From Akkermansia sp. (lineage in GTDB: Bacteria; Verrucomicrobiota; Verrucomicrobiia; Verrucomicrobiales; Akkermansiaceae), in NCBI GenBank assembly GCA_030536145.1, contig JAUNQN010000004.1, positions 34,239-98,238 on the forward strand: 64,000 nt of DNA, in the 5' to 3' direction. This document shows positions 39,769-56,250 of the stretch, one piece after another. The notes under the pieces were generated by a model that was given only the letters and a program-made list of their open reading frames with translations, was not told the origin of the DNA and searched no databases. The stretch's first letter is position 1, and every line of letters starts with the position of its first letter. A program made the position numbers and the translations under genes.

Positions 39769-40115
39769 TGCGGCTGACGGGTGGCGGGTTGTGCTGCACC
39801 ACGTCCGCCGTCAGGGTGGGGTTCCCGGGTTGGGTGGTGCACCCCGCCGGTTCCGCGGGCTGACGCGCCGTGGCTCCGGCCACCCCGCCGTTCGCCCGTC
39901 TCCGCTTCGCTTCCGCTTTCTCTGCGATACGCATCGTTCGGAGAAATCGGCACATTGGTAAGACTCAGCCAATCTTTATAGGATTGGGATACCTGTTTGC
40001 CTTGCGGCAGAGCCGTGCGGTGCCCCGCAAAAAAAAGGAACAGTCCCGTTTTTTTGCCTTGAGTTCTCGTGAAAAGGATTGTATCTTGAGGAAAAGATTT
40101 TTCACATTTTACACC

Positions 40116-43100: not shown

Positions 43101-43532
43101 CAGCTCACCCTGGGCTACTGTTATGCAGAGGGCGAGGGCGTGCCGCAAGACCCCGCCAAGGCCGTGGAATGCTACACACTGGCGGCGGAACAGGGCAATG
43201 CAGAGGCCCAGCTGGCCCTGGCCTGCTGCTACGCAGACGGCGATGGTACGCCCAAGGACCCCGCCAAGGCCGTGGAATGGTATACCAGGGCCGCGGAGCA
43301 GGGCAATGCCTGGGCCCAGTTTGTCCTGGGGGTCTGCCATGAGCAGGGCGTGCTGGTGGACCGGGATGCCGCCAAGGCTGCGGAGTGGTATGCCAAGGCT
43401 GCGGAGCAGGGGCATGCCGATGCCCAGCAGAGCCTGGCCCGCTGCTATGCGGAGGGCAACGGCGTGCCCCAAGATGCCGCCAAGGCCGCCGAATGGGCCG
43501 CCAAGGCCATCGCCGCACCCGCAGGGACCTGA
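40116..43532 (+). CDS. giant Sel1-repeat protein (30 tandem 36-aa repeats), no signal peptide seen
   Basis: 1138 aa from MNEYFSVSPSAPEP. I counted 30 consecutive units of the form A.(E/D)WY.KAAEQG.A.AQ..LG.CY..G.GV.QD...A. Confidence 0.88.
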   Translation: MNEYFSVSPSAPEPDSTFSKVYNRLDMRCYRGYGVPRDAAVASSAGWYARAAGQGDVMAQVTLAECYAAGQGVEKDAARAAEWYGKAAEQGHAGAQYAIGDCYARGLGVEQDAARAAEWYAKSAMQGDARAQFAMGECCSSGQGTACDLVQAADWYARSAAQGYAPAQYALGAICLEGRGLPQEPARAVEYLVKAAEQGYAPAQYRLGWCCVEGVGREADAAAGADWYARAAAQGHAKAENRLGQCCYYGIGMPQDMEKAAEWYAKAAGQGLAEACFNLGRCYAYGEGVARDAARAVEWYAKSAEQGYALAQYALGRCYETGEGVAADAGQAVDWYTKAAEQGDAPAQCRLGLCYAEGRGVEQDAARAVEWYTRAAEQEYPKAQYALATACAQGDLLPPDMEQAVSWYMKAADLGYAEAQYALGACYAEGVCVPQDLVMAMNWYTKAAEQGHARAQYTLGRCCMTGLGVEHDAAKAAGWFERAAVQGYAKAQNRLGLCYHSGYGVPLDIARAAEWYAKAAEQGDAEAQYNLGRCCMYGEGVPADAARAVDLYSRAAGQGYALAQLALGVCYERGDGVEPDAVKAAGYYVQAAAQGVARAQFCLGMCYKDGRGVEQSDEKAAELYRQAAEGGYARAQYTLGRCYIKGELFPVDAFLSADWYRRAAEQGFADAQYELGLCYANGGALPRNCIQAVEWYTKAAEQGHVDAQYALAACWHQGLGTPRDSEKAVEWYTRAAEQGHARAQYALGTCYAGGDGVTQDPARAAEWYAISAGWGYARAQTAMGRCCLDGAGVEQDAAKAMEWFQKAAEQDFPEAQYQLGLCFFQGIGVEQDAARAAEWYARAAELGHAEAQFCIGRCCYYGEGVGQDYAKAAEWYTRAAEQGVLLAQFALGVSYEQGLGMEPDAAQAAFWYSRAAEQGYARAQFNLALCYEQGRGVFPNPSQAVAWYLKAAGQDYARAQYNLGLCYGKGNGVTQDAAAAVKWYTKAAEQGNAEAQLTLGYCYAEGEGVPQDPAKAVECYTLAAEQGNAEAQLALACCYADGDGTPKDPAKAVEWYTRAAEQGNAWAQFVLGVCHEQGVLVDRDAAKAAEWYAKAAEQGHADAQQSLARCYAEGNGVPQDAAKAAEWAAKAIAAPAGT

Positions 43533-43613: not shown

Positions 43614-46600
43614 TTATCGGCGCCTGCGGCGGGCGGCCAGCGCGGCCAGGGCCAGCAAGGAGAACGTGCCCGTGGCGGGTTCCGGAACGTTGATTTCCGG
43701 GGTGTCTGCCCCCGCCGCGCCAAAGTACACTACGCCGCTCTTGAGTTTCAGCTCGCTGATGGTTACCTCTGTTTCACCCACGTTGCGCACCATGGTGGCA
43801 TTGGAGCTGTTCGAGATGTTCACGTCGTCGCCGAAGTTCACTGCCACGCAGTCTCCATCGCCTACCTGCATGCCGTCAAACATACTGGCATCGAACTTTA
43901 CGTTGGCCATGGTCAGTTCACAGTTGATCATGTTGCGCACGTCGAAGATGTAGCAGGTCCCCGTTTCCGTGTCCTGCGTGGTGTAGGCGGTCCCGGTGAG
44001 GTCGATGACCACGTTGCTGAGCGTGATGGCATGGCTGCCCGTGGAGATGCTCACATCTGCCGCCATGCCCACGTTTTCCACGCACAGGTTGTCATTGGAG
44101 ACGATATCCACGCCGCGCAGCATGCTTTCCACCGGGTTGGCGTCTGATGCCCCGGAGATGAGGTTGTAGGAAATAGTCAGTTTTTCCAGCTCGGCAGCCT
44201 TTGCCTCCCGGTTGGTGATGGACATGGCGGAGCTGCCCTGAGTGAATCTCACGCCGGTGGCGGTACTCTTGCTCTCCGCCTTGTCCGTGCCCAGCACCAC
44301 CTTGCCGGCAGAGCTGTCCAGCTTGCTGTCCTTGAACTCTATCTTCTTGCCCGCCTCCGCTGCCAGGTACAGGGTGCCCTTGTTCACCACGGCTGCCTTT
44401 CCGTCCGTGTTGCTGCCGAAGGATACGTCCCCGTTCCACGCAAATTCCGCCGTGGCTCCCTCTGCGTTGTACAGGTCGTTGCCCTCCTGGGCTGAGTTGC
44501 CGGAGAAGGTGACCTCCTTGTTGCCGGAGACGGAAAGGGCGCTTTCATTGTAGATGGCGCCGCCCTGCGCGGTTTTGTCTGCCGTGACGGAGTTGCCGGT
44601 GAAGCGGACGACCTGGTTCTCTCCCGAAATCTCCAAGGATGATTCCTGGGCCAGGTGGATGGCTCCGCCGCGTGCCACGCCTTCATGAACGGGGGTGGAG
44701 GCCGTGGCGGAGTTGCCGGTGAAGATTACTTCCCGGTTGTCGCAGATGCTGCCTTGTGCTCCGTATCTGCCGTTTTCGCCAACGTTCATGGTATCCAGGA
44801 ACAGGGCACCGCCGCGGGCAAAGGCGGCAGTGTCGTTTGTGCTGTCCTGCGGGTCTGTGAATTTCGCGGTGGCACTGTTGGCATGGAACACCACACTATC
44901 GTTCCCTTGGATGCTCATGGATGGGATGGCGTAGAGGAAAGAACCATCGGACTGGAGGTAGCTTGTACTCAGGCCGTCAAACTTGACAGCCAATGCACCG
45001 CCGGAGGCATGGCTGCCCTGGATGTATTCTTTTAGCCTGGTGTCGTAGTAGTAGTTTCCGGGGTTGTTGACCTCCACGGAGTTGTTGCTGAACTCTATAT
45101 TGTGGTTCCTGTCCAGCTCGATATACATGGCTGCCAATCCGCCGCCGCAGCCGAACACGTCCTTGCCGCTCACGGAGTTGCCGGAGAAGGTGATGCCGGC
45201 ATTGTCGTTCATGTAGGCGCGTTCCAGGGCATAGGCTCCGCCGCCGTGTACATGGGTGCCCTCTACCCGGTTGTTTGAGATGAGGACTTGCCCGCTGGAC
45301 TTGATGGAGAAGGAGTCCTCCGAGCCAATGCCTCCGCCGCCGTATGCGGAGAATTTTCCCCAATCGTCCGCCATTGTGTTGGAGATGGTTGCTTGGTTGC
45401 CGCTGATATTTACATCACCGCCGCCCTTGATTTCCACATAGGATTTGGCGGAAATGCCGCCACCGGTGCCGATGTACTTGGCATTGGTGACGGAGACCTC
45501 TCCGCCGTGGATATAGAGCTGCCCCTCTGCCACCACCCCCCCGGCCTGCCAGCGCCCGCCGCCTGCTACCTCCAGCCCGCCGTTCAGCAGAGCCATGGCA
45601 CCGTCTGCCACTTTGAACATGGGGGAAAGCGGGTCGGCTGTGTAGGAAACGGAAATCTTGGCATCCCTTTCCGTGGTAAACACAATGGCTGCAGGTGTTT
45701 GGGTCCCCTCGTACGTGCCGCCACCTATGCACAGTGTGGAATCGGTAAAGGTGGCAGATTGGGTGAGGGTGCAGGTTTGGTTCACTTGGTCGCTGATACT
45801 TGCTACACTGGTTTGCGATGCTCTCTCAGCCACCTTTTTCCCTGTGGTGTGTGATGTTTCGGGTGTATCGATGTAGGAGACATCGTAAAGCATGTAATTG
45901 TACATGGAATACCAGCTGCCGTACCGATCGTTGCCAATCGTGACTGTGCCATCGGCCTCCTCTTTCAAGGTGAGAATGATGGCTCCATACTGCTTGTCAT
46001 CGGAATCCGTGACAATCAGGCCGGTGATATTGCCCTTGTCATCGGTCTCATACCCCCAGCAGGTAATGGCATGCATGCCTGAGTAGTACCTGTCGTTATG
46101 GCATACTGACAAGTTGACCGCCTGCCCTTGGGTGGAGAATGCCTTTTGCAGGGTGCTGTCGATGATAGACTTGTTGGTCTTCAGCCCCTTGTCGATAAAC
46201 AGGGAATAGAATGAAGCGTCTTGCAATCCGGAGGCATAGGCAGGCTGGGTACTGCCGAAGATTTTCGTGTAATAGCCGCCGGAATTTTCATCCTTGAGGG
46301 AGCTGCCATAGGGTACGTATCTCCCGCCTGTCATCCACCAGGAGTATGCACTGTACACATAGCCGCTGCTTTCCGTCCAGCTTGCCAACAACTCGTCGTA
46401 CACTGCCAGGGAATCCGTGCCTGCAGGTTCTGTGTAGCCTGTTGTCACGCCCATGGCCGGGTCCGTTCCCTGGTCGCGGAAGTTGTAATAGGTATCCTGC
46501 CAGTACTGTATGACGTTGGAGGCTGCCGCAGCCCAACACATCACATAATCGTTCCGGTATCCTTCTGCTTTATACGCAGGAAGCGAAGCATCAGCGCTGT

Positions 46601-46748
46601 ACGTCAGTTTGCCGTTGTCATACACATTGCCGGAGACAATGGTGCAGTCTGCCTTTGCCGCAGGGGAGAGCGCGGCGAGCAGGAGTGCCATGGAAAGGGA
46701 ACAAATCTTCACACCCGTGTTTATAGCTGTTATAGGGTAGGATGTCAA
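43614..46748 (-). CDS. IdeS/Mac-like cysteine protease domain + long beta-helix repeat region + PEP-CTERM anchor
   Basis: 1044 aa. It has YVMCWAAAASNVIQYWQ and MHAITCWGYETDDKGNITGLIVTDSDD (Asp at His+22 and His+24). The C-terminus is VPEPATGTFSLLALAALAARRRRR. The start is uncertain (46748, or the Met at 46691). Confidence 0.78.
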   Translation of the reverse strand: MTSYPITAINTGVKICSLSMALLLAALSPAAKADCTIVSGNVYDNGKLTYSADASLPAYKAEGYRNDYVMCWAAAASNVIQYWQDTYYNFRDQGTDPAMGVTTGYTEPAGTDSLAVYDELLASWTESSGYVYSAYSWWMTGGRYVPYGSSLKDENSGGYYTKIFGSTQPAYASGLQDASFYSLFIDKGLKTNKSIIDSTLQKAFSTQGQAVNLSVCHNDRYYSGMHAITCWGYETDDKGNITGLIVTDSDDKQYGAIILTLKEEADGTVTIGNDRYGSWYSMYNYMLYDVSYIDTPETSHTTGKKVAERASQTSVASISDQVNQTCTLTQSATFTDSTLCIGGGTYEGTQTPAAIVFTTERDAKISVSYTADPLSPMFKVADGAMALLNGGLEVAGGGRWQAGGVVAEGQLYIHGGEVSVTNAKYIGTGGGISAKSYVEIKGGGDVNISGNQATISNTMADDWGKFSAYGGGGIGSEDSFSIKSSGQVLISNNRVEGTHVHGGGAYALERAYMNDNAGITFSGNSVSGKDVFGCGGGLAAMYIELDRNHNIEFSNNSVEVNNPGNYYYDTRLKEYIQGSHASGGALAVKFDGLSTSYLQSDGSFLYAIPSMSIQGNDSVVFHANSATAKFTDPQDSTNDTAAFARGGALFLDTMNVGENGRYGAQGSICDNREVIFTGNSATASTPVHEGVARGGAIHLAQESSLEISGENQVVRFTGNSVTADKTAQGGAIYNESALSVSGNKEVTFSGNSAQEGNDLYNAEGATAEFAWNGDVSFGSNTDGKAAVVNKGTLYLAAEAGKKIEFKDSKLDSSAGKVVLGTDKAESKSTATGVRFTQGSSAMSITNREAKAAELEKLTISYNLISGASDANPVESMLRGVDIVSNDNLCVENVGMAADVSISTGSHAITLSNVVIDLTGTAYTTQDTETGTCYIFDVRNMINCELTMANVKFDASMFDGMQVGDGDCVAVNFGDDVNISNSSNATMVRNVGETEVTISELKLKSGVVYFGAAGADTPEINVPEPATGTFSLLALAALAARRRRR

Positions 46749-46961
46749 GTGCGCGTTTCCGGGGGATAAATCGGAGGTTTGCAGGGGCGTTTTATGGGTA
46801 AGTTCCTAGTTTTCAGGGTAATGTGTAAAATGGGAAAGCGCCGGGGGAGGAAAATCTGAAAGTGCGTATCCAATATGCACGGTATGTGTAAGTCTTTGAT
46901 AGTAAATATCCCCAAAGGGTGGTTTTGCGGGAAATTGAAAAAAACGGAAAAAGATGGCCGA

Positions 46962-48017
46962 ATGGAGTCAACTACCGTGAATGAAAGAGAAAAGGACTAT
47001 GAGCAGCTGCTGCGCGGCACAGGGCTGACCCTGATGGAATGTGTGTGCCTGGGCAAGAGCCTGAGTGAACAGAGGGCGGAGCTGGATCTGCCGCCGGAGC
47101 TGAGCCTGGTGCGTGATGCCAACCTGTACGGCAACGCGCTGCGGCAGTGGGTGGAGATGCAGCAGAGCCGGAGTTTCCGGGAGGTGGCGCGGCTGCATGT
47201 GGAAGACAAGCGGAACAAGCGCAGCCGCACGCGCAGGGAGTGCAGCGAGATGCTGGCGCGGATGATGCGGGAGGTCCCCGGTCTGGCGGGGCAGATGGTA
47301 CGGAGTATAACCACGGAGTATTGCCGCCAGGTGATAGGGCGGGTGTTTGAGACCCAGGCCATGCGGAACAAGGCCCGGCGTATCCTGCACAATTTTTTCG
47401 AGACCTGCCGGATTAACGGCTGGTGCGGGAAAAACCCCGTGGCGGATATACACTACGCCGCCGCAGAGGAGAGTACCATCCATGTGCTCAGCCTGCCGCA
47501 GATAGGGAGATTGTTGCAAACGGTGTACAAGCCGGAGCACCGGGATTGTGCCGCAGCCGTGGGGCTGATGCTGTGGTGTGGCATACGCCCGTATGAGGTG
47601 GCGCGCCTGCAGTGGGGTGATGTGGACCTGGCGGAGCGTGTGGTGTTTGTAAGCCCGCGGCACAGCAAGACCGGCGGTGCGCGGCAGGTGCCCCTGCGCG
47701 CGCCGGTGCTGCGGCTGCTGCGCCGGGAATCTGCCGCCCGTGCGGCGGGGGGCAGGATTGTGCCGCGCGACTGGACCCGGCGCTGGAAACGCCTGCGCCG
47801 GGCGGCAGGGTTTGCCGTGTGGCGGGCGGATACGCTGCGCCACACATTCGCCAGCTACCATTTCAAATTCTTCCAGGATGCCGGGCAGTTGCAGTGGGAG
47901 ATGGGCCATACCAGTGCCGCCCAGCTGCGCAGCCGCTACCTGAACATGCGCGGTTTTACCCGTGCGGAGGCTGCGCGGTTCTGGCACCTCCGCCCGGAGC
48001 TGGAGCCTGCGGGGTAA
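46962..48017 (+). CDS. tyrosine recombinase / phage-type integrase
   Basis: About 351 aa from MESTTVNERE. It has GIRPYEVARLQWGDVD (box I Arg), HSKTGGARQVPL, LRHTFASY, GH and RSRYLN (catalytic Tyr region). Confidence 0.85.
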   Translation: MESTTVNEREKDYEQLLRGTGLTLMECVCLGKSLSEQRAELDLPPELSLVRDANLYGNALRQWVEMQQSRSFREVARLHVEDKRNKRSRTRRECSEMLARMMREVPGLAGQMVRSITTEYCRQVIGRVFETQAMRNKARRILHNFFETCRINGWCGKNPVADIHYAAAEESTIHVLSLPQIGRLLQTVYKPEHRDCAAAVGLMLWCGIRPYEVARLQWGDVDLAERVVFVSPRHSKTGGARQVPLRAPVLRLLRRESAARAAGGRIVPRDWTRRWKRLRRAAGFAVWRADTLRHTFASYHFKFFQDAGQLQWEMGHTSAAQLRSRYLNMRGFTRAEAARFWHLRPELEPAG

Positions 48018-48453: not shown

Positions 48454-49035
48454 TCAGGGGGAGAAAGCCAGGGCACCCATGAATCCCGGTGCCGGGGAAA
48501 AGAGCTCCACCTGCGGCGCATCCGGGAATTGCGGGACAATGCGGCCTGCATCATACAGGAATGGGAACCGCCCCTGAGCGTGCCAGATGCCGGAGCCGGC
48601 GTGCTTGACCAGGGCCTCTGCGGCGCACCAGCATGCATAGAACTCCTGCTGCGGGCAGCCGCGCTCCATGAAGGCGGCCAGCTGCGGTGCGGCCATGAAC
48701 CGCTCCGCCAGGGCGGCAAAGGGGCGCGGGCGCATGTACTCCACATCCACGCCTATTTCCCGGTGGTGGAAAGCCAGGCACAGGCAATCACGGGAGTGGC
48801 TCATGTTGAACGGCTGCGGGGGGAAGTGCGGCTTGCCGTTCTCCCCGTATTGCAGGCGTATCCCCTGCACCTGCAGCCCGGTGAGCCGTGCCAGCTCCCG
48901 CCGCAGGAGCATGCGGCGTGCCAGGTAGGGCGCGCCGTGGCGGGCGTATGCCTCCTGCTCATGCGCATCCAGCAGGGCGGCATCCGCCGGGGCTGCGGGG
49001 GGGATTTGGCTGCTGTTGTAAACCAGGTAGTGCAT
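48454..49035 (-). CDS. Sfp/EntD-type 4'-phosphopantetheinyl transferase
   Basis: 193 aa. It has GKPHF, FNMSHSRD, IGVDVE and WCAAEALVKH motifs. Its start overlaps the upstream stop (TGATG). Confidence 0.85.
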   Translation of the reverse strand: MHYLVYNSSQIPPAAPADAALLDAHEQEAYARHGAPYLARRMLLRRELARLTGLQVQGIRLQYGENGKPHFPPQPFNMSHSRDCLCLAFHHREIGVDVEYMRPRPFAALAERFMAAPQLAAFMERGCPQQEFYACWCAAEALVKHAGSGIWHAQGRFPFLYDAGRIVPQFPDAPQVELFSPAPGFMGALAFSP

Positions 49036-49532
49036 CAGAGCGGAAGGATGGCGGCGGTGTTGGCCGCCGTATCATACACGGCCAGGGAGGGGTGGCCGCC
49101 GCGGCCCAGGATTTCCCCGGGATTGCACACCAGGGTGCTGCCGCTGCAGCGGTTGAAGGCCTGGTGGGTGTGGCCGAAGAATACGGCATCATACCTGCCG
49201 AACATGAGCGCCTTTTCCGCCTGGGCGGGCAGGTGGGTGAAATAGACCCGGCGCCCGCCCAGCTCCAGCTCCCCGGAGAAGCCGTGCAGCGTGGTGCAGG
49301 GGTAGGATTCCGCCTGGGTGCGGAAAGAGTCGTGCTCAAACTCGTTGTTGCCGAACACCAGGTCCAGCTGCAAATGGGCGGGCCAGGCGGCACGCAGGGC
49401 GGCAAAGGTGGCGCTGCGCACCATGTCCCCCATGCAGAGCATGCGGGTGCAGCCCTGCTGCAGGGCCAGCTCCACGGCGCGCTGCATGTTGGCCGTGTTG
49501 TCGTGTATATCTGATACCAGTGCTGCGCGCAT
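49035..49532 (-). CDS. YfcE/MJ0936-type metallophosphoesterase
   Basis: 165 aa. It has SDIHDN, MGDMV, GNNEFE and FGHTHQ motifs. The start is 6 nt after the upstream stop. Confidence 0.85.
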   Translation of the reverse strand: MRAALVSDIHDNTANMQRAVELALQQGCTRMLCMGDMVRSATFAALRAAWPAHLQLDLVFGNNEFEHDSFRTQAESYPCTTLHGFSGELELGGRRVYFTHLPAQAEKALMFGRYDAVFFGHTHQAFNRCSGSTLVCNPGEILGRGGHPSLAVYDTAANTAAILPL

Positions 49533-49538
49533 GGCTTG

Positions 49539-51689
49539 CTATTTCTTCTTTTCAGCGGTAAAGAGGGGGGAGAAGGGGATGGCACCCTGCATCTCCTCCC
49601 CGTGGCGGGCGGTGCTCAGCCCCTCTTCGGTCAGGAACCACACCATCTGCCTGCCCTGCGGGCGCAGGCTGTAGCAGGGGCTGCCGTCCGGCTGCACGAA
49701 ACCGCAGAAACGCGGGCTGATATCCATGAACCCGGTAAAGTTCTCTGCCATTTCCCCGCTGTAGTCCGCGCGGGTGTGCTTGCCGAACCATTCTGCAAAG
49801 GCCTTCTCCGCGCGCTCGTGCGCGGGGTCTGCATGCAGCCAGCAGTTGCCGTCCAGCTCCACGCCGCAGCGCTTGCGCAGCTGGTCGAACTCACGCATAT
49901 CCGCCTGCAGGGAGGGGGAGTAGGGCAGGCCGGTGAGCATGCGCTGCCCGCTGCCTTTCACCATGTCCAGCAGCTTGCCGTACACATAGGCGCGCGCCAG
50001 CGCCGGGCATTCCGGGGCCTGGCAGCGTATCACGGCGGCCAGGGCCTTGCCGTAGTTCAGCCCGGCATAGAATTCCGTGCGGTCCTGCGTGTGCAGGCAG
50101 GCGGCCAGGGGGGAGGGGTCTATGCGGCGGGAGCTCACCCAGTGCGGGTCCGGCCAGGTGGTGGCGGCATCGCTGCCGGTGGGCTTGCCGGGGTCCAGGT
50201 TGGAACGCAGGAAATGCACCCGGCCGTCCTTGACCTCCGGTGCGGCCTCGGAGAAGAAGGTGTCTCCCTTCTCATTGCTGATGGCGTACAGCGGGGTGGA
50301 GAGGGCGGTGCAGCCCAGCAGGTCGTCCGCCGCATGCGTTTCCGCCGTGGTGGCGGGAAACTCCGGGGAGATGGCGGATTCCCCCTGCACCAGGGTCCTG
50401 CGGGCGGCGGCCAGCAGGTTGTGGGGAATGTTCTTGCCGCTGCTGATGAGCTCCCGCAGCATGGTGCCGTGGTCCGGCAGGGTGGCGGCGGTCTCCTTGG
50501 CGGCGGCCAGGGCGGTGTAGTATTTTGGGGAAACCAGGGCCAGCTGGTGGCGGTAGCTGCCGTAGTCCTGCGCAGCGGCCAGCCTGGCCAGGCTCTCCTG
50601 CAGGCGGCGGTTCTCCCGCAGCATGGCGTTCACTTTCTTGAGCGCCCGTTGCGCGGGTTCCACCAGCGCCTCGTCCTCCATGCCGGTGCTGTGGGAATCT
50701 GCAAAAATCAGGCAGCGTTCCATCAGCTCGGAGCGCAGGCTCTCCAGCTTCTGCTCGTCCGCCTTCAGGTCGTTCCCCGGCTCCACCATGGAGGGCAGGG
50801 GCTCTGCCAGCTTGCGCATCAGCTGCATGCGCTGGGCGGCCAGCTGCTGCTTTTCCGCCTCGCAGAACTTGGCCCAGTCCTTGCGGAGCTTGTCGGCGGA
50901 CTTGGGCAGGGCATCCAGGCTCTGCTCAATCTCCATGCGGCGTATGGGACCCATCTCTGCCACGGAAAGCTTTCCGGCGCCGATGCGCTGCATCAGCCCG
51001 GCAAGCTCCTTCATGGTGGCTTCCTCCCTGCGGATGCGGGTGCGTGCCGCGTTTACCAGGAAATCCATGCGCTTGCAGAAGAAGCGGTTGAATCCCGTAT
51101 CCACCGCTTTCAGGCAGGCGGCCAGCTCCGGGGTATCCCCCGTGCGCAGGCTGGCTTGCAGGCGGTCTGCGCTCTGCTCCGCATGGCGGCCCAGCAGCAC
51201 CCAGGTGAGCACCAGCAGCGCGGCCGCCCCTGCGGCTATGCCGCCCGCCACCACCTGGCGGCGCATGGGCTTGGCACGGCGTGCCAGCTCACGCTCCAGC
51301 GCTTGGCTGTACTGGCGGTAGGTGCGCTGCCCCTCTGCATCCAGCAGGTGCCCGGCCAGTTTTTCCTTGCGGGTGATTTCCTTGCGGGCGCGCTTGAGCC
51401 TGGCCCGTTTCCACCCGACAAAGAGCTGGGGATCCTGCCGGAAGGCCTGCAGGGCATCCGTGAGCCGTTCCAGGTTCTGGTCATCCTTTGCCTGCTCCTT
51501 GCGGTGGAAAATCGCCAGGGTCTGGAGCGGCTGGCCGGAATCCAGGCGCTCCAGTTCTGCGCGCGCCACCGCGTGGTTGGGGTTCTTGCGCAGGATGTCT
51601 ATCAGCACGTTGCGGGCGGCTGCCATGTCCCCCTGCGCGGCGTATTTGCGCAGGGCCTGAAAGGCGGGGTCTGCTTTTCTTCTGCTCAT
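49539..51689 (-). CDS. large single-pass membrane protein with TPR-like N-terminus (GTPase-operon gene 3)
   Basis: About 716 aa from MSRRKADPAFQ. It has a TPR-like AAQGDMAAARNVLIDILRKNPNHAVARAEL segment and a TM helix VVAGGIAAGAAALLVLTWVLLG after RRAKPMRR. About 540 aa follow the TM. Its ATG overlaps the upstream stop (ATGA at 51686-51689). Confidence 0.7.
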   Translation of the reverse strand: MSRRKADPAFQALRKYAAQGDMAAARNVLIDILRKNPNHAVARAELERLDSGQPLQTLAIFHRKEQAKDDQNLERLTDALQAFRQDPQLFVGWKRARLKRARKEITRKEKLAGHLLDAEGQRTYRQYSQALERELARRAKPMRRQVVAGGIAAGAAALLVLTWVLLGRHAEQSADRLQASLRTGDTPELAACLKAVDTGFNRFFCKRMDFLVNAARTRIRREEATMKELAGLMQRIGAGKLSVAEMGPIRRMEIEQSLDALPKSADKLRKDWAKFCEAEKQQLAAQRMQLMRKLAEPLPSMVEPGNDLKADEQKLESLRSELMERCLIFADSHSTGMEDEALVEPAQRALKKVNAMLRENRRLQESLARLAAAQDYGSYRHQLALVSPKYYTALAAAKETAATLPDHGTMLRELISSGKNIPHNLLAAARRTLVQGESAISPEFPATTAETHAADDLLGCTALSTPLYAISNEKGDTFFSEAAPEVKDGRVHFLRSNLDPGKPTGSDAATTWPDPHWVSSRRIDPSPLAACLHTQDRTEFYAGLNYGKALAAVIRCQAPECPALARAYVYGKLLDMVKGSGQRMLTGLPYSPSLQADMREFDQLRKRCGVELDGNCWLHADPAHERAEKAFAEWFGKHTRADYSGEMAENFTGFMDISPRFCGFVQPDGSPCYSLRPQGRQMVWFLTEEGLSTARHGEEMQGAIPFSPLFTAEKKK

Positions 51690-54445
51690 TCGGAAAGGGC
51701 GGGTTGCAGCTGGAAGCACCATTTCAAGCCTCCCTCCTCAGGGGGCTCCAGGCGCTCCAGCACCAGTTTGTAGCTCACATGCGGTGCCGGGGTGCCCTGC
51801 CTGCCCTTGGCGGCGGTGCGCTCGCAGAAATCCCGCAGCTCGTCCTCCAGTGCGGCGCAGATGGCGCGGCGCAGCATGGCGCGCTCCTCCGGCCGGGCCA
51901 GCATGCGGCACACGGCGGCGCAGCGCGCCGGGGCATCCGCGCTGGTGCCGTGCGCCTGGTCTACCGTGAGCAGCAGCTCCGGCTGGGCGGCCAGCAGCAG
52001 GCTCATCTCCGCGTTCAGCACGGGGTTGGCCAGCATGCGCACGTACGCCTTGCTCATTTCCTCCATGTGGCCCGCATCTGCGGTGGTGTCCATCTCGCAG
52101 GTCATGTTGTACAGGGTGGCGCGCAGGGGAATGCCCGTGCCGTAGTCTGCCCCGGCCAAGCGGTTGAAGAGCGCATCCACCAGCTGGCGCATGTAGGGCG
52201 CGGCGTTGATACGGCAGTTGAAGATGGTGGTGTCTCCCTCCACGGAGCTGCTGTCGCACACCCATTTGGAGGAGACATTGGCGGCGGGCGTGAGGGCCTG
52301 GAGCCTGTTCTCACCCACCACCACGGGGAGCTGCAGGGTGAAGGCGGTGCCGGCCACGGCGGCCAGGGCGGGCAGGCGGGTCAGGCGCTCCGGGGTGAGC
52401 CGCAGGCCGGGCATGCCGTGCAGCCCGCGCAGCCCGGGTATGGCCGTGGAGCTGCGCTGCACGTCCGCCTCAGTGATATGCAGGTCCAGCGGCGCCAGGG
52501 ACGGGCGGTCGTTCAGCGGAATCTCGATGTGCGGTGTCAGCACCATCGTGTGGGCCACGTTGTCATGGTCTGCATCTGCGGTGATACAGAGCACGGCGGG
52601 CCTGCCGCCGCTGGTGATGGAGCGCAGGATACCCGCATCCGCCTCTATCACGATGGGCGGGGTCAGGTGGCTGGGGCGCCCGTTCTCCTCCAGGGAGAGG
52701 GTGACGCGGCTTTCCGAATCCTGGTGCAGGCGCAGGCTCTGGCCGCCCGGCTGCAGGCGGATGCGCTGGGTGGTGTCCAGCTTGCCTGTGGGGGAGAAGG
52801 TGGCTACCACCAGCTCACCGGAGGTGATGACCTGTGAGAGGGAGATGTGCTTGCAAACCTCCGGCAGCGGTGAGCCGGAGATGGCGGTCTGCACCTTGCG
52901 CTCCGCCGCAGGCACCGCGGGGCGCGCGGGTTCCTCCTGCTTGGCGATGGTCACCGTGTCTGCACCGGGGAGCTGCGGGAAGATGTTGGCAAAGTACGGG
53001 GAGCGGGAGCGCAGCAGGGCATCCCGCAGCAGCGGGCGCTCCGCCAGGAACGTGTCCCACTCGTCCGCCTCTGCGCGGGAAAGGTGCTCCGTGCCGCCGC
53101 GTGCCATGGCCTGCTGCATGTACAGGGCCACCAGCGCACCGGGGGCTATGCCCAGCATCTCCGCGCAGTCTGCCATGCGGCGCAGGTTGCCCACGCGGTG
53201 GTCTGCCGTGCGCAGCAGGCGGCAGCACTCCCGGATGGCCCCTGATGTCACGTCGGACATCCTGCCGTTCCCCTGCGCCGCTTGGGCGGAGATGGCATCC
53301 AGGCGGGCGGCGGTGTAGGCGGCGTCATACGGGCGCTCTGCCAGCCCGGTAAGCTCTGCAATGAGTGCGCCCGGCCCGGCGGGTTCCACGGTGGTGGCGG
53401 CAGCGGCGGGCTTGCCCTTGGCTCCGTGTTGCACGCCCAGCACCCAGCCTGCCGCGCAGAGCACGCAGGCGGCGGAGGCGGTGATGGCCACCATGCGGCG
53501 TTGCCTGCGGCGGCGGTATTCCTTGGGGCAGGGTGGCTTTTCCGCCAGGGGCGGGGCGGTTTCCTTGGGCGTGGCGGTGGTGCCGCAGCTGCAGGGGACC
53601 GGGGTGCCGGGCTGCTCCTTGGCCGTATCCCGGCTTTCCGGGCCGGGCTGGGGCTTGGTGTCCACGGGCATTTCCGGCAGCTCCATGGCGGGGCTTATCT
53701 CCAGCATGGGGTGGCTGGCGCGCCGGGCACGCTCTATCAGGCGGTAGTTGTCCGTGGCGCAGACAATACGGTTGGTATCCGCAAAGGAATCACAGTCCTC
53801 CCCGCAGGTGGTGAAGGTGTGCCCCCAGCCGCGCAGGTGGGTGAGCCAGTCCGCCTCATGCAGCAGGGCCAGTATATCCAGCCCGGCGGTGCCGGGTGCC
53901 ACCAGCACCAGGCTGTCGTTCTCATACGGGGGCGTGCAGAAGGCGCGCGCGTTGCTCTTGTGCCCGGTCAGGCGCTTCCATGCCGGCTGGGTGGAGGCAT
54001 CCGGTATGTCATCCGTGCAGAAGGCGGGGGCAGCGGTCAGCACGCGCGGCGGCCCCTCCCAGCGCTGCTGCCAGAGCCCGCGGTTCTCCATGGCCAGCAT
54101 GATTCCGGCCGGCGTGGGGCGGGCGGGATTGCGGCACAGGGCGCACACCTCGTCGTTCCCCAGGATCAGGTGGTGGGCTATGTGGCAGTTGCGGCCGCTG
54201 TAGTCCGCCCCGGCCATCTGCACGCGCGTCATCACGTGGTAGGTGGTGCCGCGGTATTCCAGCACGCGGTAGGAATACTGCGGCCCCGGCAGGGACTGGG
54301 CGGATTTCTCACGGAACCCGCTCAGGGCGGTCAGCTTGTCGCACAGGATGCGTGATATCCCCTCGCTGCGGGCCACGGTTCCGTAACCCGGCTGGTCGCA
54401 GTCCAGTAGGTGCTTGGCGCTGGTATGGATGAGCTGCAGGGGCAT
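51686..54445 (-). CDS. large single-pass membrane protein with GAP1-like (GTPase-associated protein) N-terminal domain (GTPase-operon gene 2)
   Basis: 919 aa. The N-terminus is MPLQLIHTSAKHLLDCDQPGYGTVARSEGIS. The TM helix MVAITASAACVLCAAGWVLGV follows RRRRQRR. About 580 aa follow the TM, with no motif I recognise. Confidence 0.72.
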   Translation of the reverse strand: MPLQLIHTSAKHLLDCDQPGYGTVARSEGISRILCDKLTALSGFREKSAQSLPGPQYSYRVLEYRGTTYHVMTRVQMAGADYSGRNCHIAHHLILGNDEVCALCRNPARPTPAGIMLAMENRGLWQQRWEGPPRVLTAAPAFCTDDIPDASTQPAWKRLTGHKSNARAFCTPPYENDSLVLVAPGTAGLDILALLHEADWLTHLRGWGHTFTTCGEDCDSFADTNRIVCATDNYRLIERARRASHPMLEISPAMELPEMPVDTKPQPGPESRDTAKEQPGTPVPCSCGTTATPKETAPPLAEKPPCPKEYRRRRQRRMVAITASAACVLCAAGWVLGVQHGAKGKPAAAATTVEPAGPGALIAELTGLAERPYDAAYTAARLDAISAQAAQGNGRMSDVTSGAIRECCRLLRTADHRVGNLRRMADCAEMLGIAPGALVALYMQQAMARGGTEHLSRAEADEWDTFLAERPLLRDALLRSRSPYFANIFPQLPGADTVTIAKQEEPARPAVPAAERKVQTAISGSPLPEVCKHISLSQVITSGELVVATFSPTGKLDTTQRIRLQPGGQSLRLHQDSESRVTLSLEENGRPSHLTPPIVIEADAGILRSITSGGRPAVLCITADADHDNVAHTMVLTPHIEIPLNDRPSLAPLDLHITEADVQRSSTAIPGLRGLHGMPGLRLTPERLTRLPALAAVAGTAFTLQLPVVVGENRLQALTPAANVSSKWVCDSSSVEGDTTIFNCRINAAPYMRQLVDALFNRLAGADYGTGIPLRATLYNMTCEMDTTADAGHMEEMSKAYVRMLANPVLNAEMSLLLAAQPELLLTVDQAHGTSADAPARCAAVCRMLARPEERAMLRRAICAALEDELRDFCERTAAKGRQGTPAPHVSYKLVLERLEPPEEGGLKWCFQLQPALSE

Positions 54446-54461: not shown

Positions 54462-56198
54462 TCAGCTGTTCTGTGAGCAGGGGAGCAGTGAGGGAGCCAG
54501 GCAGCTCAGTGCCCACAGCGTGGAATCCGTGACGCGGAACGGGTGTACCTGGCCGGATGCCGGGCCGATGAGGCGGCTGCCGCTGTGCTCGTCCGTGAAC
54601 TCCACCGGGGATTCTCCCAGGGAGGAGGCGGCAAAGTAGCGCACGTTGGAGGAGATGGCCTCCGCATTCGTGCAGATGTGCGGGGCTATGTTGAAGATGA
54701 ACTGGCGCAGGCGCGCGGAGTTTGCCTGGATAAGCTCCGGCATGAACATGCCGTTGCGCGTGGCGGGCAGCAGCGGCTCCGGCCCCAGCAGGTGGGCCCA
54801 GGTATCGCTCTTGCCGATGATGACGGCCAGCGGTACGTCCAGCTTCTTGCCCGGCGGCAGGTTCAGCTTGGTGCGCACGCGCATCTCAGATTCCGCCAGC
54901 AGCAGGGCCTGCCGGCCCGGGGGATGCAGGTTCAGGCGCAGCTGCGGGTCCTCGTTGTCATGCAGCAGCTTGCGGAACCCGGGATTGGCCGTGGGGTCGA
55001 AGAGGAACAGGATGGCATCCGCCACGCTCAGGTGGGCGCCGCCGGGGTTGATTTCAGAGTCCCGCCCCGGCTGGAAATCCTCTCCCGCATTGTCGTACAG
55101 CACAATGGAGTGGGTCTCGGAATCCTTGTTCAGGTTGTAGATGAAGGGGCGGGGCATGTTGGCCTGCACGCCGTGGCGCCATACCTTGTGGTACAGGCGG
55201 CCCTGCAGCTGGGTCTTGCCGATGTAGGCCTCCTGCGGGGTCTGGGCGGAGAACAGGCGCATGCGCATGTCGTTCAGCGGCTCGTTCATCACCGGGTCCG
55301 CATCACGGAACGGCAGGCCGAAATCCCGCGGGAACTCCAGCTCCAGCTCCCGCACCAGGGAGGTCAGGAAATACGACTTGCCCGCCGCCGGCACACCCAC
55401 CAGGGAGATGAGGTGCTGCCTGGTCTGCGTGAAGAAGGGCGGCAGTTTCTCATGGCAGTGCGGGCAGGCAAAATCCGGGCAGGGGGAGCCTTTGGCATCC
55501 ACCGGCAGGCCCTGGCAGTTGCGCTCCGTGGGCTTGAACCGCAGCATGGCGTCCTCCCCCAGCACGGAGTCCCCGCACAGGGCGGGGTGCACGGCTATGG
55601 CCAGCTCCTGGCCGGCGTAGAAATGCTCCCAGCAGTTCGGGCAGCGCAGCAACTGCCCGTCATCCCCGTCAGGCGCCCCGGCGGCAGCATCCTTCTGCGC
55701 GGCAAACACCGCCACCGCTATCAGGTCCTTCAGGTAGAACGCGCAGTTGTCCAGCCCCTGGAAAGTGGCCAGCATCTCCCCCGGGAACTCGCGGGAGGCC
55801 TCCGGCATATCCCCCAGGGAATACGGACCGTACCACTCGTCCTTCTCCGGGCTGTACAGGAACCACACGTTCGGGTCGTACTGGTCGAACGCAGGCTTGT
55901 TGGCCGCATCCCCGTACCAGCACACAAAACACCCGCAATCCAGCACAAAGAGGTACATGGTCTCCTTGCGTATCACCACGTCCGTGTTCATGGGTATGCC
56001 GTTCAGGGAGTATTTCTCCACATGCCCGTGAGGGAAAAAGCGGCAGGTCTCGTCCCGCTGCGCAAAGGAACCGCCGTTCTCCGCCTGCATGCGGATGCGG
56101 AAGGTGTTCTTTTCCCCCGCGCCGATGGTCATGAATACGCCGTCGGATGACCAGAGCTTGGCGGAAAGGCTGTCGTAGATGAAAAGTTGGTTGTTCAT
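54462..56198 (-). CDS. FHA-like / split zinc-ribbon / P-loop GTPase (GTPase-operon gene 1)
   Basis: 578 aa from MNNQLFIYDS, with an AGGAGA SD 8 nt upstream. G1 is GVPAAGKSY, G3 is LYDNAGED and the G4-like motif is IIGKSD. It has CPNCW...CPHCH cysteine pairs and an N-terminal roughly 95-aa FHA-like segment. Confidence 0.8.
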   Translation of the reverse strand: MNNQLFIYDSLSAKLWSSDGVFMTIGAGEKNTFRIRMQAENGGSFAQRDETCRFFPHGHVEKYSLNGIPMNTDVVIRKETMYLFVLDCGCFVCWYGDAANKPAFDQYDPNVWFLYSPEKDEWYGPYSLGDMPEASREFPGEMLATFQGLDNCAFYLKDLIAVAVFAAQKDAAAGAPDGDDGQLLRCPNCWEHFYAGQELAIAVHPALCGDSVLGEDAMLRFKPTERNCQGLPVDAKGSPCPDFACPHCHEKLPPFFTQTRQHLISLVGVPAAGKSYFLTSLVRELELEFPRDFGLPFRDADPVMNEPLNDMRMRLFSAQTPQEAYIGKTQLQGRLYHKVWRHGVQANMPRPFIYNLNKDSETHSIVLYDNAGEDFQPGRDSEINPGGAHLSVADAILFLFDPTANPGFRKLLHDNEDPQLRLNLHPPGRQALLLAESEMRVRTKLNLPPGKKLDVPLAVIIGKSDTWAHLLGPEPLLPATRNGMFMPELIQANSARLRQFIFNIAPHICTNAEAISSNVRYFAASSLGESPVEFTDEHSGSRLIGPASGQVHPFRVTDSTLWALSCLAPSLLPCSQNS

Positions 56199-56221
56199 GC
56201 GGGGAATCTCCTGTGCCTGCA

Positions 56222-56250
56222 ATCTTACCCCAAATGCCCCCGTGAGTCAA
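56222..56250 (-). promoter_or_regulatory. promoter of the GTPase operon (TTGACT-N17-TAAGAT)
   Basis: Minus strand: -35 TTGACT (56250-56245) and -10 TAAGAT (56227-56222). The predicted leader is about 17-20 nt and contains AGGAGA. Confidence 0.6.

What the first reader, a model, noticed from the sequence alone, without database searches (positions are those of the whole stretch)
54462..56198. Unusual GTPase architecture: FHA-like N-terminus, four-Cys split zinc ribbon, then a divergent TRAFAC-like G domain
Residues about 1-95 (…MTIGAGEKNTFRIRMQAENGGSFAQRDETCRFFPHGHVEKYSLNGIPMNTD…) have the rhythm of an FHA domain.

CPNCW and CPHCH lie about 65 aa apart, giving a split zinc ribbon immediately before the Walker A.

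The G domain has G1 GVPAAGKSY, G3 LYDNAGED and a non-canonical G4 IIGKSD (Gly where N/T is expected), followed by a roughly 130-aa C-terminal extension.

I do not recognise this domain order from any characterised GTPase family. The ORF-track start (56222) is a TTG inside the -10 box. The ATG at 56198 has an AGGAGA SD 8 nt upstream.
Basis: partly seen in the sequence, partly recalled or inferred. Interest (0 to 1): 0.75.

Follow-up and report, generated by a model that had tools for sequence, protein, structure and literature searches.

The report
Akkermansia DO-GTPase switch with FHA-GYF head
The gene encodes a real GTPase with an FHA-fold domain and a four-cysteine zinc ribbon, but its core belongs to the "double-GTPase"/GAP1 family predicted by computer analysis in 2020, so it is a new member with an unreported N-terminal add-on and not a new kind of GTPase.

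Summary
All are conserved in at least 100 Akkermansia orthologues.

The AlphaFold2 models are confident (pLDDT 92-94). Residues 1-100 match only solved FHA domains. Residues about 105-175 link by profile search to GYF_2 domains. Two CPxC knuckles that never vary (C186/C189, C245/C248) flank a conserved insert of about 55 residues. Residues 259-578 form a complete TRAFAC G domain, so the supposed "C-terminal extension" actually holds G5 and the last helix.

The architecture is not unprecedented. The zinc-ribbon-plus-GTPase core (residues 176-578) recurs in about 2,900 cluster representatives and hits Pfam DO-GTPase2. Its Walker B is DxxGE, and the G4 motif GKxD is family-wide. The next gene encodes a GAP1-N2 protein. 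This is the DO-GTPase/GAP1-N2 "GTPase-centric" system of Kaur et al. (eLife 2020), which that paper reported in Verrucomicrobia and Planctomycetes. I found no experimental work on the family.

What seems new is the fused N-terminal module, in which the FHA domain has lost its phosphothreonine-binding residues. The operon also sits at a fixed chromosomal position across the genus. Its two membrane partners evolve much faster (about 30% identity) than the GTPase (73%).

Interest is moderate.

The parts
54462..56198 (-). DO-GTPase2-family gene, 578 aa (stop codon 54462-54464)
   Evidence: ORF and translation. Full-length orthologues at 44-99% identity across Akkermansia. Pfam PF19993 at 29.7 bits against a cut-off of 27. 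AF2 model pLDDT 92.4.
56207..56212 (-). AGGAGA Shine-Dalgarno-like sequence, 8 nt before ATG 56198
   Evidence: Read directly from the sequence. Orthologue N-termini support this start.
56222..56250 (-). Sigma-70-like promoter match, TTGACT-17-TAAGAT (weak evidence)
   Evidence: 9 of 12 positions match. One site was found in the region against 0.9 expected, so the match is not significant on its own.
55899..56198 (-). Residues 1-100: FHA-fold beta-sandwich lacking the canonical phosphothreonine-binding residues
   Evidence: AF2 N-terminal model pLDDT 94. Foldseek top 50 hits are all FHA domains. Pfam FHA is not detected. The canonical Arg position is A/S/R/K/N, the S-x-x-H motif is lost and the S/T-N-G loop is variable.
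55674..55886 (-). Residues about 105-175: GYF_2-like small alpha/beta domain plus a linker helix
   Evidence: The iterated profile aligns query 112-150 with the Pfam GYF_2 region (111-147) of P0224. P0245 and P0217 match this part only. 6 of 61 related N-termini carry Pfam GYF_2. Pirellula encodes GYF_2 as a separate gene in the same locus. The fold was not tested separately.
55425..55652 (-). Residues 183-258: four-Cys zinc ribbon split by a conserved insert of about 55 residues (HP.L.GD..LG......RF.P...D..G)
   Evidence: C186, C189, C245 and C248 never vary in alignments A2, A4 and A6. R220 and F221 likewise never vary. D210 and D234 never vary in A2 and A4 and are at least 90% conserved in A6. 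Beta-strands flank each knuckle. The regex matches 137 of 150 representatives.
55632..55643 (-). Zinc knuckle 1, CPNC (C186-C189)
   Evidence: CPxC in 100 of 100 orthologues.
55455..55466 (-). Zinc knuckle 2, CPHC (C245-C248)
   Evidence: CPxC in 100 of 100 orthologues.
54465..55424 (-). Residues 259-578: complete TRAFAC-type G domain with inserts in switch I and after beta6
   Evidence: Foldseek against PDB: all 50 hits listed are GTPases. Secondary-structure order. Aligns end to end with Psta_1114.
55374..55397 (-). G1 / P-loop, GVPAAGKS (268-275)
   Evidence: G268, G273 and K274 never vary across distant representatives.
55212..55214 (-). G2 / switch I, Thr329 (KT motif)
   Evidence: T329 never varies in A4 and A6.
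55077..55097 (-). G3 / Walker B, YDNAGED (368-374). Glu373 sits at the position of Ras Gln61
   Evidence: YDNAGE[HDN] is the family consensus. Kaur et al. list a conserved Walker-B glutamate as the family hallmark.
54804..54821 (-). G4, IIGKSD (460-465)
   Evidence: K463 and D465 never vary. Gly462 is family-typical and alternates with Thr.
54621..54638 (-). G5, YFAASS (521-526)
   Evidence: Y521 and F522 never vary among Akkermansia orthologues. S525 is at least 90% conserved in both the orthologue and distant-representative alignments.
51686..54445 (-). GAP1-N2 partner, 919 aa: cytoplasmic GAP1-N2 (+M) domain, Pro-rich linker (245-312, 23.5% Pro), transmembrane segment 317-339, and a variable periplasmic region of about 580 aa
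   Evidence: Pfam PF20013 at 42.8-45.7 bits. Residues 4-332 align with a GAP1-N2+GAP1-M protein. Transmembrane segment and linker. Starts 16 nt after the GTPase stop.
49539..51689 (-). Third gene, about 716 aa: cytoplasmic helical/TPR-like N-terminus, transmembrane segment 145-169, and a large periplasmic domain. No family match
   Evidence: Orthologue alignments begin at M12 of the listed ORF, which gives an ATGA overlap with the GAP1 stop. Transmembrane segment. No Pfam, NCBIfam or PADLOC family.
49038..49532 (-). Metallophos_2 (calcineurin-like phosphoesterase) gene, about 163 aa, 6 nt downstream of the third gene. Whether it belongs to the system is uncertain
   Evidence: tblastn with orthologues from L001-L003. 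The Pfam assignment comes from those loci. It is absent from the Planctomycete loci.

Best explanation
The gene encodes the GTPase switch of a GAP1-N2-type 'GTPase-centric' three-part system, the DO-GTPase2 family of Kaur et al. 2020.

Shown here:
- The protein is soluble and has four modules. These are an FHA-fold domain, a GYF_2-like domain, a four-Cys zinc ribbon with a conserved insert, and a complete TRAFAC G domain carrying G1-G5, a switch-I Thr and a DxxGE Walker B.
- It sits in a tight operon with two single-pass membrane proteins, each predicted to have its N-terminus in the cytoplasm and a large periplasmic domain. One is GAP1-N2. The other has no family match.

Inferred:
- The zinc ribbon and its insert are an integral part of the G module. 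The insert holds family-invariant R220 and F221, plus D210 and D234, which are invariant or nearly so.
- The protein binds GTP, because K463 and D465 never vary. It hydrolyses GTP with help from Glu373.
- It acts as a timed on/off switch at the inner membrane by docking on the cytoplasmic GAP1-N2/M domain.
- The fast-evolving periplasmic parts of GAP1 and the third protein sense an envelope or extracellular cue and alter the nucleotide state of the GTPase.
- The FHA-fold and GYF-like domains are protein-recruitment surfaces. The FHA part has lost its phosphothreonine-binding residues, so it is probably phospho-independent. The GYF part may bind proline-rich segments such as the GAP1 juxtamembrane linker.

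The biological role is unresolved. I lean slightly towards envelope surveillance or conflict sensing, as proposed for the family, over a housekeeping envelope function.
For: Family and system membership:
- PF19993 hit on the query, on 23 of 33 distant relatives and on 53 of 61.
- Profile search: 2,918 cluster representatives at E <= 1e-3 and 453 at E <= 1e-30. Most share only query residues 176-578, with variable N-termini.
- DxxGE, GKxD, KT and the four Cys are conserved family-wide.
- A GAP1-N2 gene lies 16 nt downstream. The same GTPase-then-GAP1 order is seen in Akkermansia loci L001-L003 and in more distant relatives' loci L004-L006, including Pirellula staleyi.
- The family description in Kaur et al. 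fits: TRAFAC, Walker-B Glu, N-terminal zinc ribbons, membrane proximity, presence in Verrucomicrobia and Planctomycetes.

Folds:
- AF2 pLDDT 92.4 and 94.
- The G domain matches only GTPases among the hits listed.
- The N-terminus matches only FHA domains among the hits listed.

FHA/GYF homology chain.

Topology of the partners.

Pattern of a sensor evolving faster than the switch: against L002, the GTPase is 73% identical, panC 74% and the ABC ATPase 83%, but GAP1 is 31% and the third protein 30%. GAP1 comes in 919-930 aa and 488-506 aa forms.
Against: - The Pfam hit is weak and partial (29.7 bits; only profile positions 83-132 of 226).
- Kaur et al. say GAP1-N2-type GTPases 'usually' have two zinc ribbons and that the systems contain an FNIII-repeat protein. 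Here there is one four-Cys site and no fn3 hit.
- No recognisable effector domain is present. PADLOC finds nothing.
- The operon sits in a fixed, syntenic, housekeeping neighbourhood (panC upstream, ACPS downstream) across the genus. That is unlike a typical mobile defence island.
- Zinc binding, GTP specificity, hydrolysis and every protein-protein contact are untested.
- I could not inspect model coordinates, so the closeness of the four Cys to each other, and of R220 to the P-loop, is unverified.
- The Pro-rich GAP1 linker is common (median 14% Pro) but not universal (range 4-23%).
Confidence: 0.75

Rival explanations
1. The family is the same, but the biological role is housekeeping. The operon would be a vertically inherited trans-envelope signalling or organising module, for example for cell-envelope or surface-structure assembly. 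It would not be an anti-invader conflict system.
For: - The operon is at the same chromosomal position (panC/ABC upstream, Metallophos_2 and ACPS downstream) in the window and L002. The downstream genes are also kept in L001 and L003, which span GTPase identities of 50-81%.
- The GTPase is as conserved as panC.
- No toxin or effector domain is present and PADLOC finds nothing.
- GC content does not differ from the flanks.
- Distant relatives' loci pair the system with a MotA/ExbB-type channel, as envelope energy-transducing machines do.
- Kaur et al. themselves note that GAP1-N2 systems point to assembly of cytoskeleton-like complexes.
Against: - GAP1 and the third protein diverge far faster (about 30%) than the flanking housekeeping genes (49-83%).
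- GAP1 gains or loses a C-terminal region of about 430 aa between close relatives. That is the signature of an arms race.
- Relatives fuse the same core to TIR, kinase and FGE-sulfatase domains typical of conflict systems.
Confidence: 0.4
2. This is a previously undescribed GTPase family with an unprecedented domain order.
For: - NCBIfam has no model for it. Every database name given is 'hypothetical protein'.
- There is no sequence relative in the PDB.
- Pfam does not call the FHA or GYF parts.
- The main text of Kaur et al. does not mention FHA or GYF fused to the GTPase.
Against: - The core 176-578 is PF19993 DO-GTPase2, with the family's DxxGE motif, zinc ribbon and a GAP1-N2 neighbour.
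- Only the N-terminal fusion is unreported, and it is shared with many other relatives, some of which carry a canonical FHA.
Confidence: 0.04
3. The FHA domain is a working phosphothreonine reader, which would make the GTPase an output of Ser/Thr-kinase signalling.
For: - The FHA fold is confirmed.
- Relatives have canonical FHA motifs (GR, SxxH, S/T-N-G), and some fuse a protein kinase to the same core.
- Kaur et al. describe a kinase/PP2C theme in GAP1-N2 systems.
Against: - In Akkermansia the canonical Arg position is A/S/R/K/N (Arg in only 17 of 100). The His position is Gln. The beta6-beta7 S/T-N loop is unconserved.
- No kinase or phosphatase gene lies in the operon.
- Pfam FHA is not detected even at E <= 10.
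Confidence: 0.12

Closest known systems
DO-GTPase type 2 / GAP1-N2 'GTPase-centric' systems (Kaur, Burroughs, Iyer & Aravind, eLife 2020, PMC7159879; Pfam PF19993 + PF20013)
   Same: - TRAFAC G domain with a DxxGE Walker B.
- N-terminal zinc ribbon.
- GAP1-N2 gene immediately downstream.
- Membrane-anchored partners.
- Occurrence in Verrucomicrobia and Planctomycetes.

   Different: - There is a single GTPase gene with no paralogous second copy.
- There is one four-Cys site, where two zinc ribbons are described as usual.
- A degenerate FHA plus a GYF_2-like domain is fused to the N-terminus. The paper's main text does not list this fusion.
- No fn3, tubulin, HSP70, kinase or SLATT component was detected.
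- The operon is fixed in a housekeeping neighbourhood.
Pirellula staleyi Psta_1114 locus (P0487, L005)
   Same: - 33% identity across the whole of query 176-578 (E 1e-70).
- Same zinc ribbon, insert and G motifs.
- Followed by a GAP1-N2/GAP1-M protein.

   Different: - No N-terminal FHA/GYF module. A GYF_2 protein is a separate gene in the locus.
- G4 is TKxD, not GKxD.
- The locus also encodes MotA_ExbB and a conserved partner of about 277 aa, both absent from the Akkermansia operon.
FHA domains (PF00498), e.g. Ki67, M. tuberculosis EmbR, GarA/OdhI, FhaA, Rv1747
   Same: Same beta-sandwich fold: target TM-score 0.67-0.77 for the standalone-domain entries named, rmsd 2.2-3.4 A.
   Different: - No Pfam match.
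- The phosphothreonine-contacting Arg, Ser/His and Asn positions are not conserved.
- From my own knowledge, it more closely resembles the phospho-independent FHA folds of secretion-system proteins such as EssC, which also appears in the hit list (rank 23).
Classical TRAFAC GTPases (EF-Tu, G-alpha, Ras/Rho/Rab, GBP/atlastin)
   Same: - G-domain fold.
- P-loop, switch-I Thr, DxxG, the [NT]KxD-type Lys/Asp pair, and an SA-type G5.
   Different: - Only about 8-13% identity.
- Gly replaces Asn/Thr in G4.
- Glu replaces the catalytic Gln after DxxG.
- Helical and hairpin inserts lie between G1 and G3.
- A zinc ribbon is fused directly onto strand beta1.

Membership tests
DO-GTPase type 2 (PF19993) | Match to the Pfam model above its gathering score | tested here: met
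   29.7 bits against a cut-off of 27, covering only profile positions 83-132. 23 of 33 and 53 of 61 relatives also match at the E-value limits used.
DO-GTPase type 2 (PF19993) | TRAFAC-class G domain | tested here: met
   All 50 Foldseek PDB hits listed are TRAFAC GTPases. The switch-I Thr329 never varies.
DO-GTPase type 2 (PF19993) | Conserved glutamate in Walker B (DxxGE) | tested here: met
   DNAGE at 369-373. YDNAGE is the consensus in orthologues and in distant representatives. The feature is stated in Kaur et al..
DO-GTPase type 2 (PF19993) | N-terminal zinc ribbon(s); two are described as usual for the GAP1-N2 type | tested here: inconclusive
   One four-Cys site made of two CPxC knuckles that never vary. 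There are not enough Cys/His residues for a second ribbon. The paper may have counted the two knuckles as two ribbons.
DO-GTPase / GAP1 system | GAP1 gene immediately downstream, of the matching subtype | tested here: met
   PF20013 GAP1-N2 at 42.8-45.7 bits, 16 nt downstream. Residues 4-332 align with a GAP1-N2+GAP1-M protein.
DO-GTPase / GAP1 system | FNIII-repeat component (GAP1-N2 subtype) | tested here: inconclusive
   No fn3 hit in the periplasmic parts of GAP1 or the third protein, even at E <= 10. One distant relative carries fn3.
DO-GTPase / GAP1 system | Variable effector component | tested here: not met
   No effector-type domain was found. A Metallophos_2 gene follows the third gene, but it is absent from distant loci.
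DO-GTPase / GAP1 system | GTP binding and hydrolysis acting as a switch | not testable with these tools
   Only the motifs are intact.
FHA domain (PF00498) | Eleven-stranded beta-sandwich fold | tested here: met
   Foldseek top 50 hits are all FHA domains.
FHA domain (PF00498) | Match to the Pfam HMM | tested here: not met
   No FHA hit in any of 24 Akkermansia N-termini at E <= 10. hhalign against a single canonical relative was negative.
FHA domain (PF00498) | Phosphothreonine-binding residues (Arg in the GR motif, Ser/His in SxxH, Asn in the beta6-beta7 loop) | tested here: not met
   Position 27 is A34/S19/R17/K16/N10 out of 100 sequences. The His-equivalent position is Gln. The beta6-beta7 loop is variable. 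These equivalences rest on a sequence-profile alignment, not a structural superposition.
FHA domain (PF00498) | Homology chain to canonical FHA domains | tested here: met
   The iterated hmmsearch reaches P0224 (Pfam FHA 21-81) with a final E of 1.3e-18. 17 of 61 linked proteins carry Pfam FHA.
GYF_2 (PF14237) | Pfam match or profile link | tested here: inconclusive
   No direct Pfam hit. The iterated profile aligns query 112-150 with the GYF_2 region of P0224 and with P0245 and P0217. 6 of 61 linked proteins carry GYF_2. The fold was not searched separately.
Zinc ribbon | Two CxxC knuckles on beta-hairpins that bind one zinc ion | tested here: inconclusive
   The knuckles never vary and are flanked by predicted strands. 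They are separated by a conserved insert of 55 residues. Site geometry and metal content were not testable.

The most novel reading that the evidence does not exclude
The Akkermansia operon is not a mobile defence island. It is a genus-wide, vertically inherited trans-envelope sensing module. In this reading, two fast-diversifying periplasmic proteins (GAP1-N2 and the unclassified third protein) set the nucleotide state of a slowly evolving cytoplasmic zinc-ribbon GTPase. That GTPase passes the signal on through a phospho-independent FHA fold and a bacterial GYF domain. This would be a Ras-like receptor-switch-adaptor logic in a major gut commensal. Lineages whose Walker B has decayed would represent pseudo-GTPase versions of the switch.
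Probability: 0.3. Interest if true: 0.6.

Novelty: new member of a known kind. Interest (0 to 1): 0.35.

Why it matters
DO-GTPase/GAP1 systems were predicted purely by comparative genomics. I found no experimental work on them: the literature search returned only the 2020 paper and one passing mention.

The Akkermansia version is compact, with three core genes and no bulky effector array. It is conserved across an important gut genus and now has a high-confidence model. That makes it a practical entry point for testing three questions:
- Are these proteins real GTP switches?
- What does the zinc-ribbon insert do?
- How does GAP1 talk to the GTPase?

The contrast between a conserved switch and hypervariable periplasmic partners could also show what pressure, from phage, host or neighbouring bacteria, acts on the Akkermansia envelope.

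For the scan itself, the result is a calibration point.

Tried and rejected
- NCBIfam and PADLOC scans of the three operon proteins found nothing relevant.
- A profile search of PDB sequences found no relative; the best hit was gluconate kinase, on the P-loop only, at E 0.15.
- Direct Pfam detection of FHA or GYF in 24 Akkermansia N-termini at E <= 10 was negative. hhalign of the N-terminal profile against the single sequence P0224 was also negative. The link needed an iterated profile through intermediates.
With the single protein P0224 it found nothing. Context for distant relatives came from the look-up of encoding contigs instead.
- The first local iteration crashed on a mafft temporary-directory error. 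I redid it using hmmsearch alignments.
- No second, paralogous GTPase exists in the window.
- The third protein has no detectable homologue in the Planctomycete loci.
- The supplement of Kaur et al. held in the library has no architecture tables.
- I considered a second metal site in the FHA-like domain (C10/C52/C90/C93) and dropped it. The query has Ser at position 10, C93 is Cys in only 57 of 100 sequences, and the columns are not Cys in more distant relatives.
- The idea that the GYF domain binds the GAP1 Pro-rich linker stays a hypothesis only. Pro enrichment is common (median 14%) but ranges from 4% to 23%.
Full report
**1. The observation**

The minus-strand ORF 54462-56222 is real. The listed TTG start at 56222 overlaps the last base of a promoter-like -10 hexamer (TTGACT-17-TAAGAT). 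That promoter match is no better than chance (1 found, 0.9 expected). ATG 56198 lies 8 nt after AGGAGA, and almost all orthologues begin MN(K/N)QLYIYD. The protein is therefore 578 aa, starting at 56198.

- CPNC 186-189 and CPHC 245-248. They are 59 residues apart, not about 65.
- P-loop GVPAAGKS 268-275.
- YDNAGED 368-374.
- IIGKSD 460-465.

They are not chance. A database search gave 183 hits, the best 120 of them 44-99% identical and mostly full-length, all from Akkermansia or Akkermansiaceae metagenome-assembled genomes and all unnamed or 'hypothetical'. In a 100-sequence alignment, all four Cys, G268, G273, K463, D465, D401-P402 and F522 never vary.

**2. Structure**

AlphaFold2 on the 100-sequence alignment gives pLDDT 92.4. 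Its secondary structure divides the protein into four parts:
- a ten-strand beta module (4-96);
- a small beta-beta-alpha-beta-alpha unit (108-174);
- a strand-rich region that holds the two knuckles (183-258);
- a full G domain (259-578).

Foldseek of the whole model against the PDB lists only TRAFAC GTPases among its 50 best hits: EF-Tu/eEF1A, G-alpha, Rho/Rab/Ras, GBP and atlastin (E about 1e-5 to 1e-4).

The G domain includes strand beta6 with a G5-type YFAASS motif (521-526) and a final helix (558-567). Thr329, in a KT motif, never varies in distant relatives and is the switch-I threonine.

**3. The N-terminus**

A separate model of residues 1-178 (pLDDT 94) was searched against the PDB. 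All 50 top hits are FHA domains, including Ki67, EmbR, GarA/OdhI, FhaA, Rv1747, MDC1 and kinesin-3. Target TM-scores are mostly 0.56-0.77 and rmsd 2.2-3.4 A over about 95-100 residues. The FHA guess is correct at the level of fold.

Pfam does not see FHA in any of 24 Akkermansia N-termini, even at E <= 10. An iterated profile search among the N-termini of 150 cluster representatives grows from 13 to 60 proteins. It reaches P0224, which Pfam calls FHA (21-81) + GYF_2 (111-147) + DO-GTPase2. The final E-value is 1.3e-18, aligning query residues 16-150. Of the 61 linked proteins, 17 carry Pfam FHA and 6 carry GYF_2.

The alignment shows a gradient. It runs from canonical FHA motifs (IGR ... VSRRH ... 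GS.NGT.VNG) through intermediates to the Akkermansia form. In Akkermansia the Arg position is A/S/R/K/N, the His position is Gln, and the S/T-N loop is unconserved. I infer an FHA fold that no longer reads phosphothreonine.

The second domain (about 105-175) aligns with GYF_2. In Pirellula staleyi, a GYF_2 protein is a separate gene in the same locus. A domain that is fused in one genome and separate in another is evidence that it works with the GTPase.

**4. The family**

A profile of 25 orthologues, searched against 1.84 billion cluster representatives, finds 2,918 proteins at E <= 1e-3 and 453 at E <= 1e-30. Most of them share only query positions 176-578 and have different N-termini or none. 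The regex CxxC-(40-75)-CxxC-(8-30)-GxxxxGK[STA] matches 137 of 150 of the best representatives.

Across distant members, these features are invariant or nearly so:
- the four Cys;
- D210, R220, F221 and D234 in the ribbon insert;
- the P-loop, K328-T329 and YDNAGE;
- FDP;
- GKxD.

So the split ribbon, the Glu after DxxG and the Gly in G4 are all family traits. Psta_1114 has TKxD at G4.

Pfam calls DO-GTPase2 (PF19993) on the query (29.7 bits against a cut-off of 27; partial) and on 53 of 61 relatives. Kaur et al. 2020 (PMC7159879) defined this family as follows:
- TRAFAC GTPases with a conserved Walker-B glutamate;
- 60% of them with one or two N-terminal zinc ribbons;
- paired with a downstream GAP1 protein;
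- the GAP1-N2 subtype found in Actinobacteria, Firmicutes, Planctomycetes, Verrucomicrobia and Chloroflexi.

Other fusions seen here on the same core are TIR, protein kinase, FGE-sulfatase and GAP1 itself.

**5. The operon**

Sixteen nucleotides after the GTPase stop begins a 919-aa protein with a GAP1-N2 domain (PF20013, 42.8-45.7 bits). Its first 332 residues align with a GAP1-N2+GAP1-M protein from a distant relative's locus. It then has a Pro-rich linker (23.5% Pro), an RRRRQRR stretch, one transmembrane segment (317-339) and about 580 periplasmic residues.

A third gene overlaps the GAP1 stop by ATGA. Its real start is 51689. It encodes a protein of about 716 aa with a helical cytoplasmic head, one transmembrane segment (145-169) and a large periplasmic body. 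No family matches it.

A Metallophos_2 gene and a phosphopantetheinyl transferase (ACPS) gene follow tightly on the same strand. panC lies divergently upstream.

The string GTPase-GAP1-third-Metallophos_2-ACPS is kept in three other Akkermansia or Akkermansiaceae loci, with GTPase identities of 50-81%. No second GTPase paralogue is in the window.

Three loci of more distant relatives have GTPase-GAP1(N2+M) followed by a MotA/ExbB-family protein and a conserved partner of about 277 aa. One of these is Pirellula staleyi. The other two are metagenome contigs whose GTPases carry an FHA domain.

**6. Rates of evolution**

Identity against locus L002:

| Gene | Identity |
|---|---|
| ABC ATPase | 83% |
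| panC | 74% |
| GTPase | 73% |
| ACPS | 53% |
| Metallophos_2 | 49% |
| GAP1 | 31% |
| Third protein | 30% |

The GAP1 homologue list drops from 98% straight to about 33%. The closest relative by GTPase identity (81%) has a 488-aa GAP1 that lacks the C-terminal region of about 430 residues.

This is a conserved switch paired with hypervariable periplasmic partners, the pattern Kaur et al. read as invader sensing. Against that reading, the operon is not mobile, its GC content matches the flanks, it has no recognisable effector, and PADLOC finds nothing.

**7. Mechanism**

Steps shown:
- the domain folds;
- motif integrity;
- operon coupling;
- the membrane topology predictions;
- the rate asymmetry.

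Steps inferred:
- one zinc ion held by the two knuckles;
- guanine specificity through K463 and D465;
- hydrolysis helped by Glu373, which sits at the position of Ras Gln61;
- docking on the GAP1-N2/M domain at the membrane;
- periplasmic sensing that controls the nucleotide state;
- FHA-fold and GYF domains acting as recruitment surfaces.

The idea that the GYF domain binds the GAP1 Pro-rich linker is speculative. Linker Pro content has a median of 14% and ranges from 4% to 23%.

**8. Verdict**

This is a new member of the computationally defined but experimentally untouched DO-GTPase2/GAP1-N2 family. It has an N-terminal degenerate-FHA plus GYF fusion that the defining paper's main text does not mention. 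Interest is moderate (0.35).

Noticed in passing
L004 12550-13443, L005 17039-17929, L006 13806-14684 (loci of more distant relatives): In all three of these loci the DO-GTPase2-GAP1 pair is followed by a MotA_ExbB (PF01618) channel protein and a conserved partner of about 277 aa. Neither MotA nor ExbB appears in the main text of Kaur et al. 2020. The arrangement recalls proton-motor-based envelope sensors such as Zorya; that comparison comes from my own knowledge and was not tested.
   Followed up: partly
window 49038-49532 (-) and 48454-49035 (-): A 163-aa Metallophos_2 (calcineurin-like phosphoesterase) gene starts 6 nt after the third gene and abuts a phosphopantetheinyl transferase gene. 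This five-gene co-directional string is conserved in L001-L003. Calcineurin-like phosphoesterases are the commonest effectors of the GAP1-N1 subtype, so a functional link is possible but unproven. The gene is absent from the Planctomycete loci.
   Followed up: partly
alignments A1/A2 (orthologues such as P0101, P0107, P0109, P0113, P0116, P0119): Roughly 10-15% of the Akkermansia orthologues have a decayed Walker B (YNNTAIS, YNHAA--, YNTGNES). A few also have Ala or Val in place of the P-loop Ser/Thr (GKA, GKV). The zinc Cys and the GKxD Lys/Asp stay invariant in them. These may be pseudo-GTPase lineages that bind nucleotide but do not hydrolyse it.
   Followed up: partly
window 51686-52980 (-) (GAP1 residues about 490-919): The C-terminal periplasmic region of GAP1, about 430 residues, is present in the 917-954 aa forms but missing from the 488-506 aa forms in L003 and L001. 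L003 is the closest relative by GTPase identity.
   Followed up: partly
window 46875-48017 (+): A tyrosine recombinase (Phage_integrase, 62.5 bits) sits just beyond the ACPS gene, where locus L002 has Rce1-like, AIRS and dnaA genes. This suggests an insertion or rearrangement at that border.
   Followed up: no
window 43614-46748 (-), with GC 0.51-0.60 over 44000-47000: A 1044-aa ORF has Chlamydia-PMP repeat, Mac-1-like and PEP-CTERM hits. It lies in a stretch of clearly lower GC than the window's usual 0.64-0.72. It may be a horizontally acquired surface protein next to the integrase.
   Followed up: no
window 39870-43532 (+): A 1220-aa protein is made almost entirely of Sel1 repeats (29 matched stretches, 877 bits).
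   Followed up: no
P0186 (774 aa) and P0128 (713 aa), distant relatives: The same degenerate-FHA + GYF-like + zinc-ribbon + GTPase chain is preceded by a TIR domain in P0186 and by extra zinc-ribbon-like CxxC pairs in P0128. This ties the module to NAD-cleaving-type conflict domains in other lineages.
   Followed up: partly
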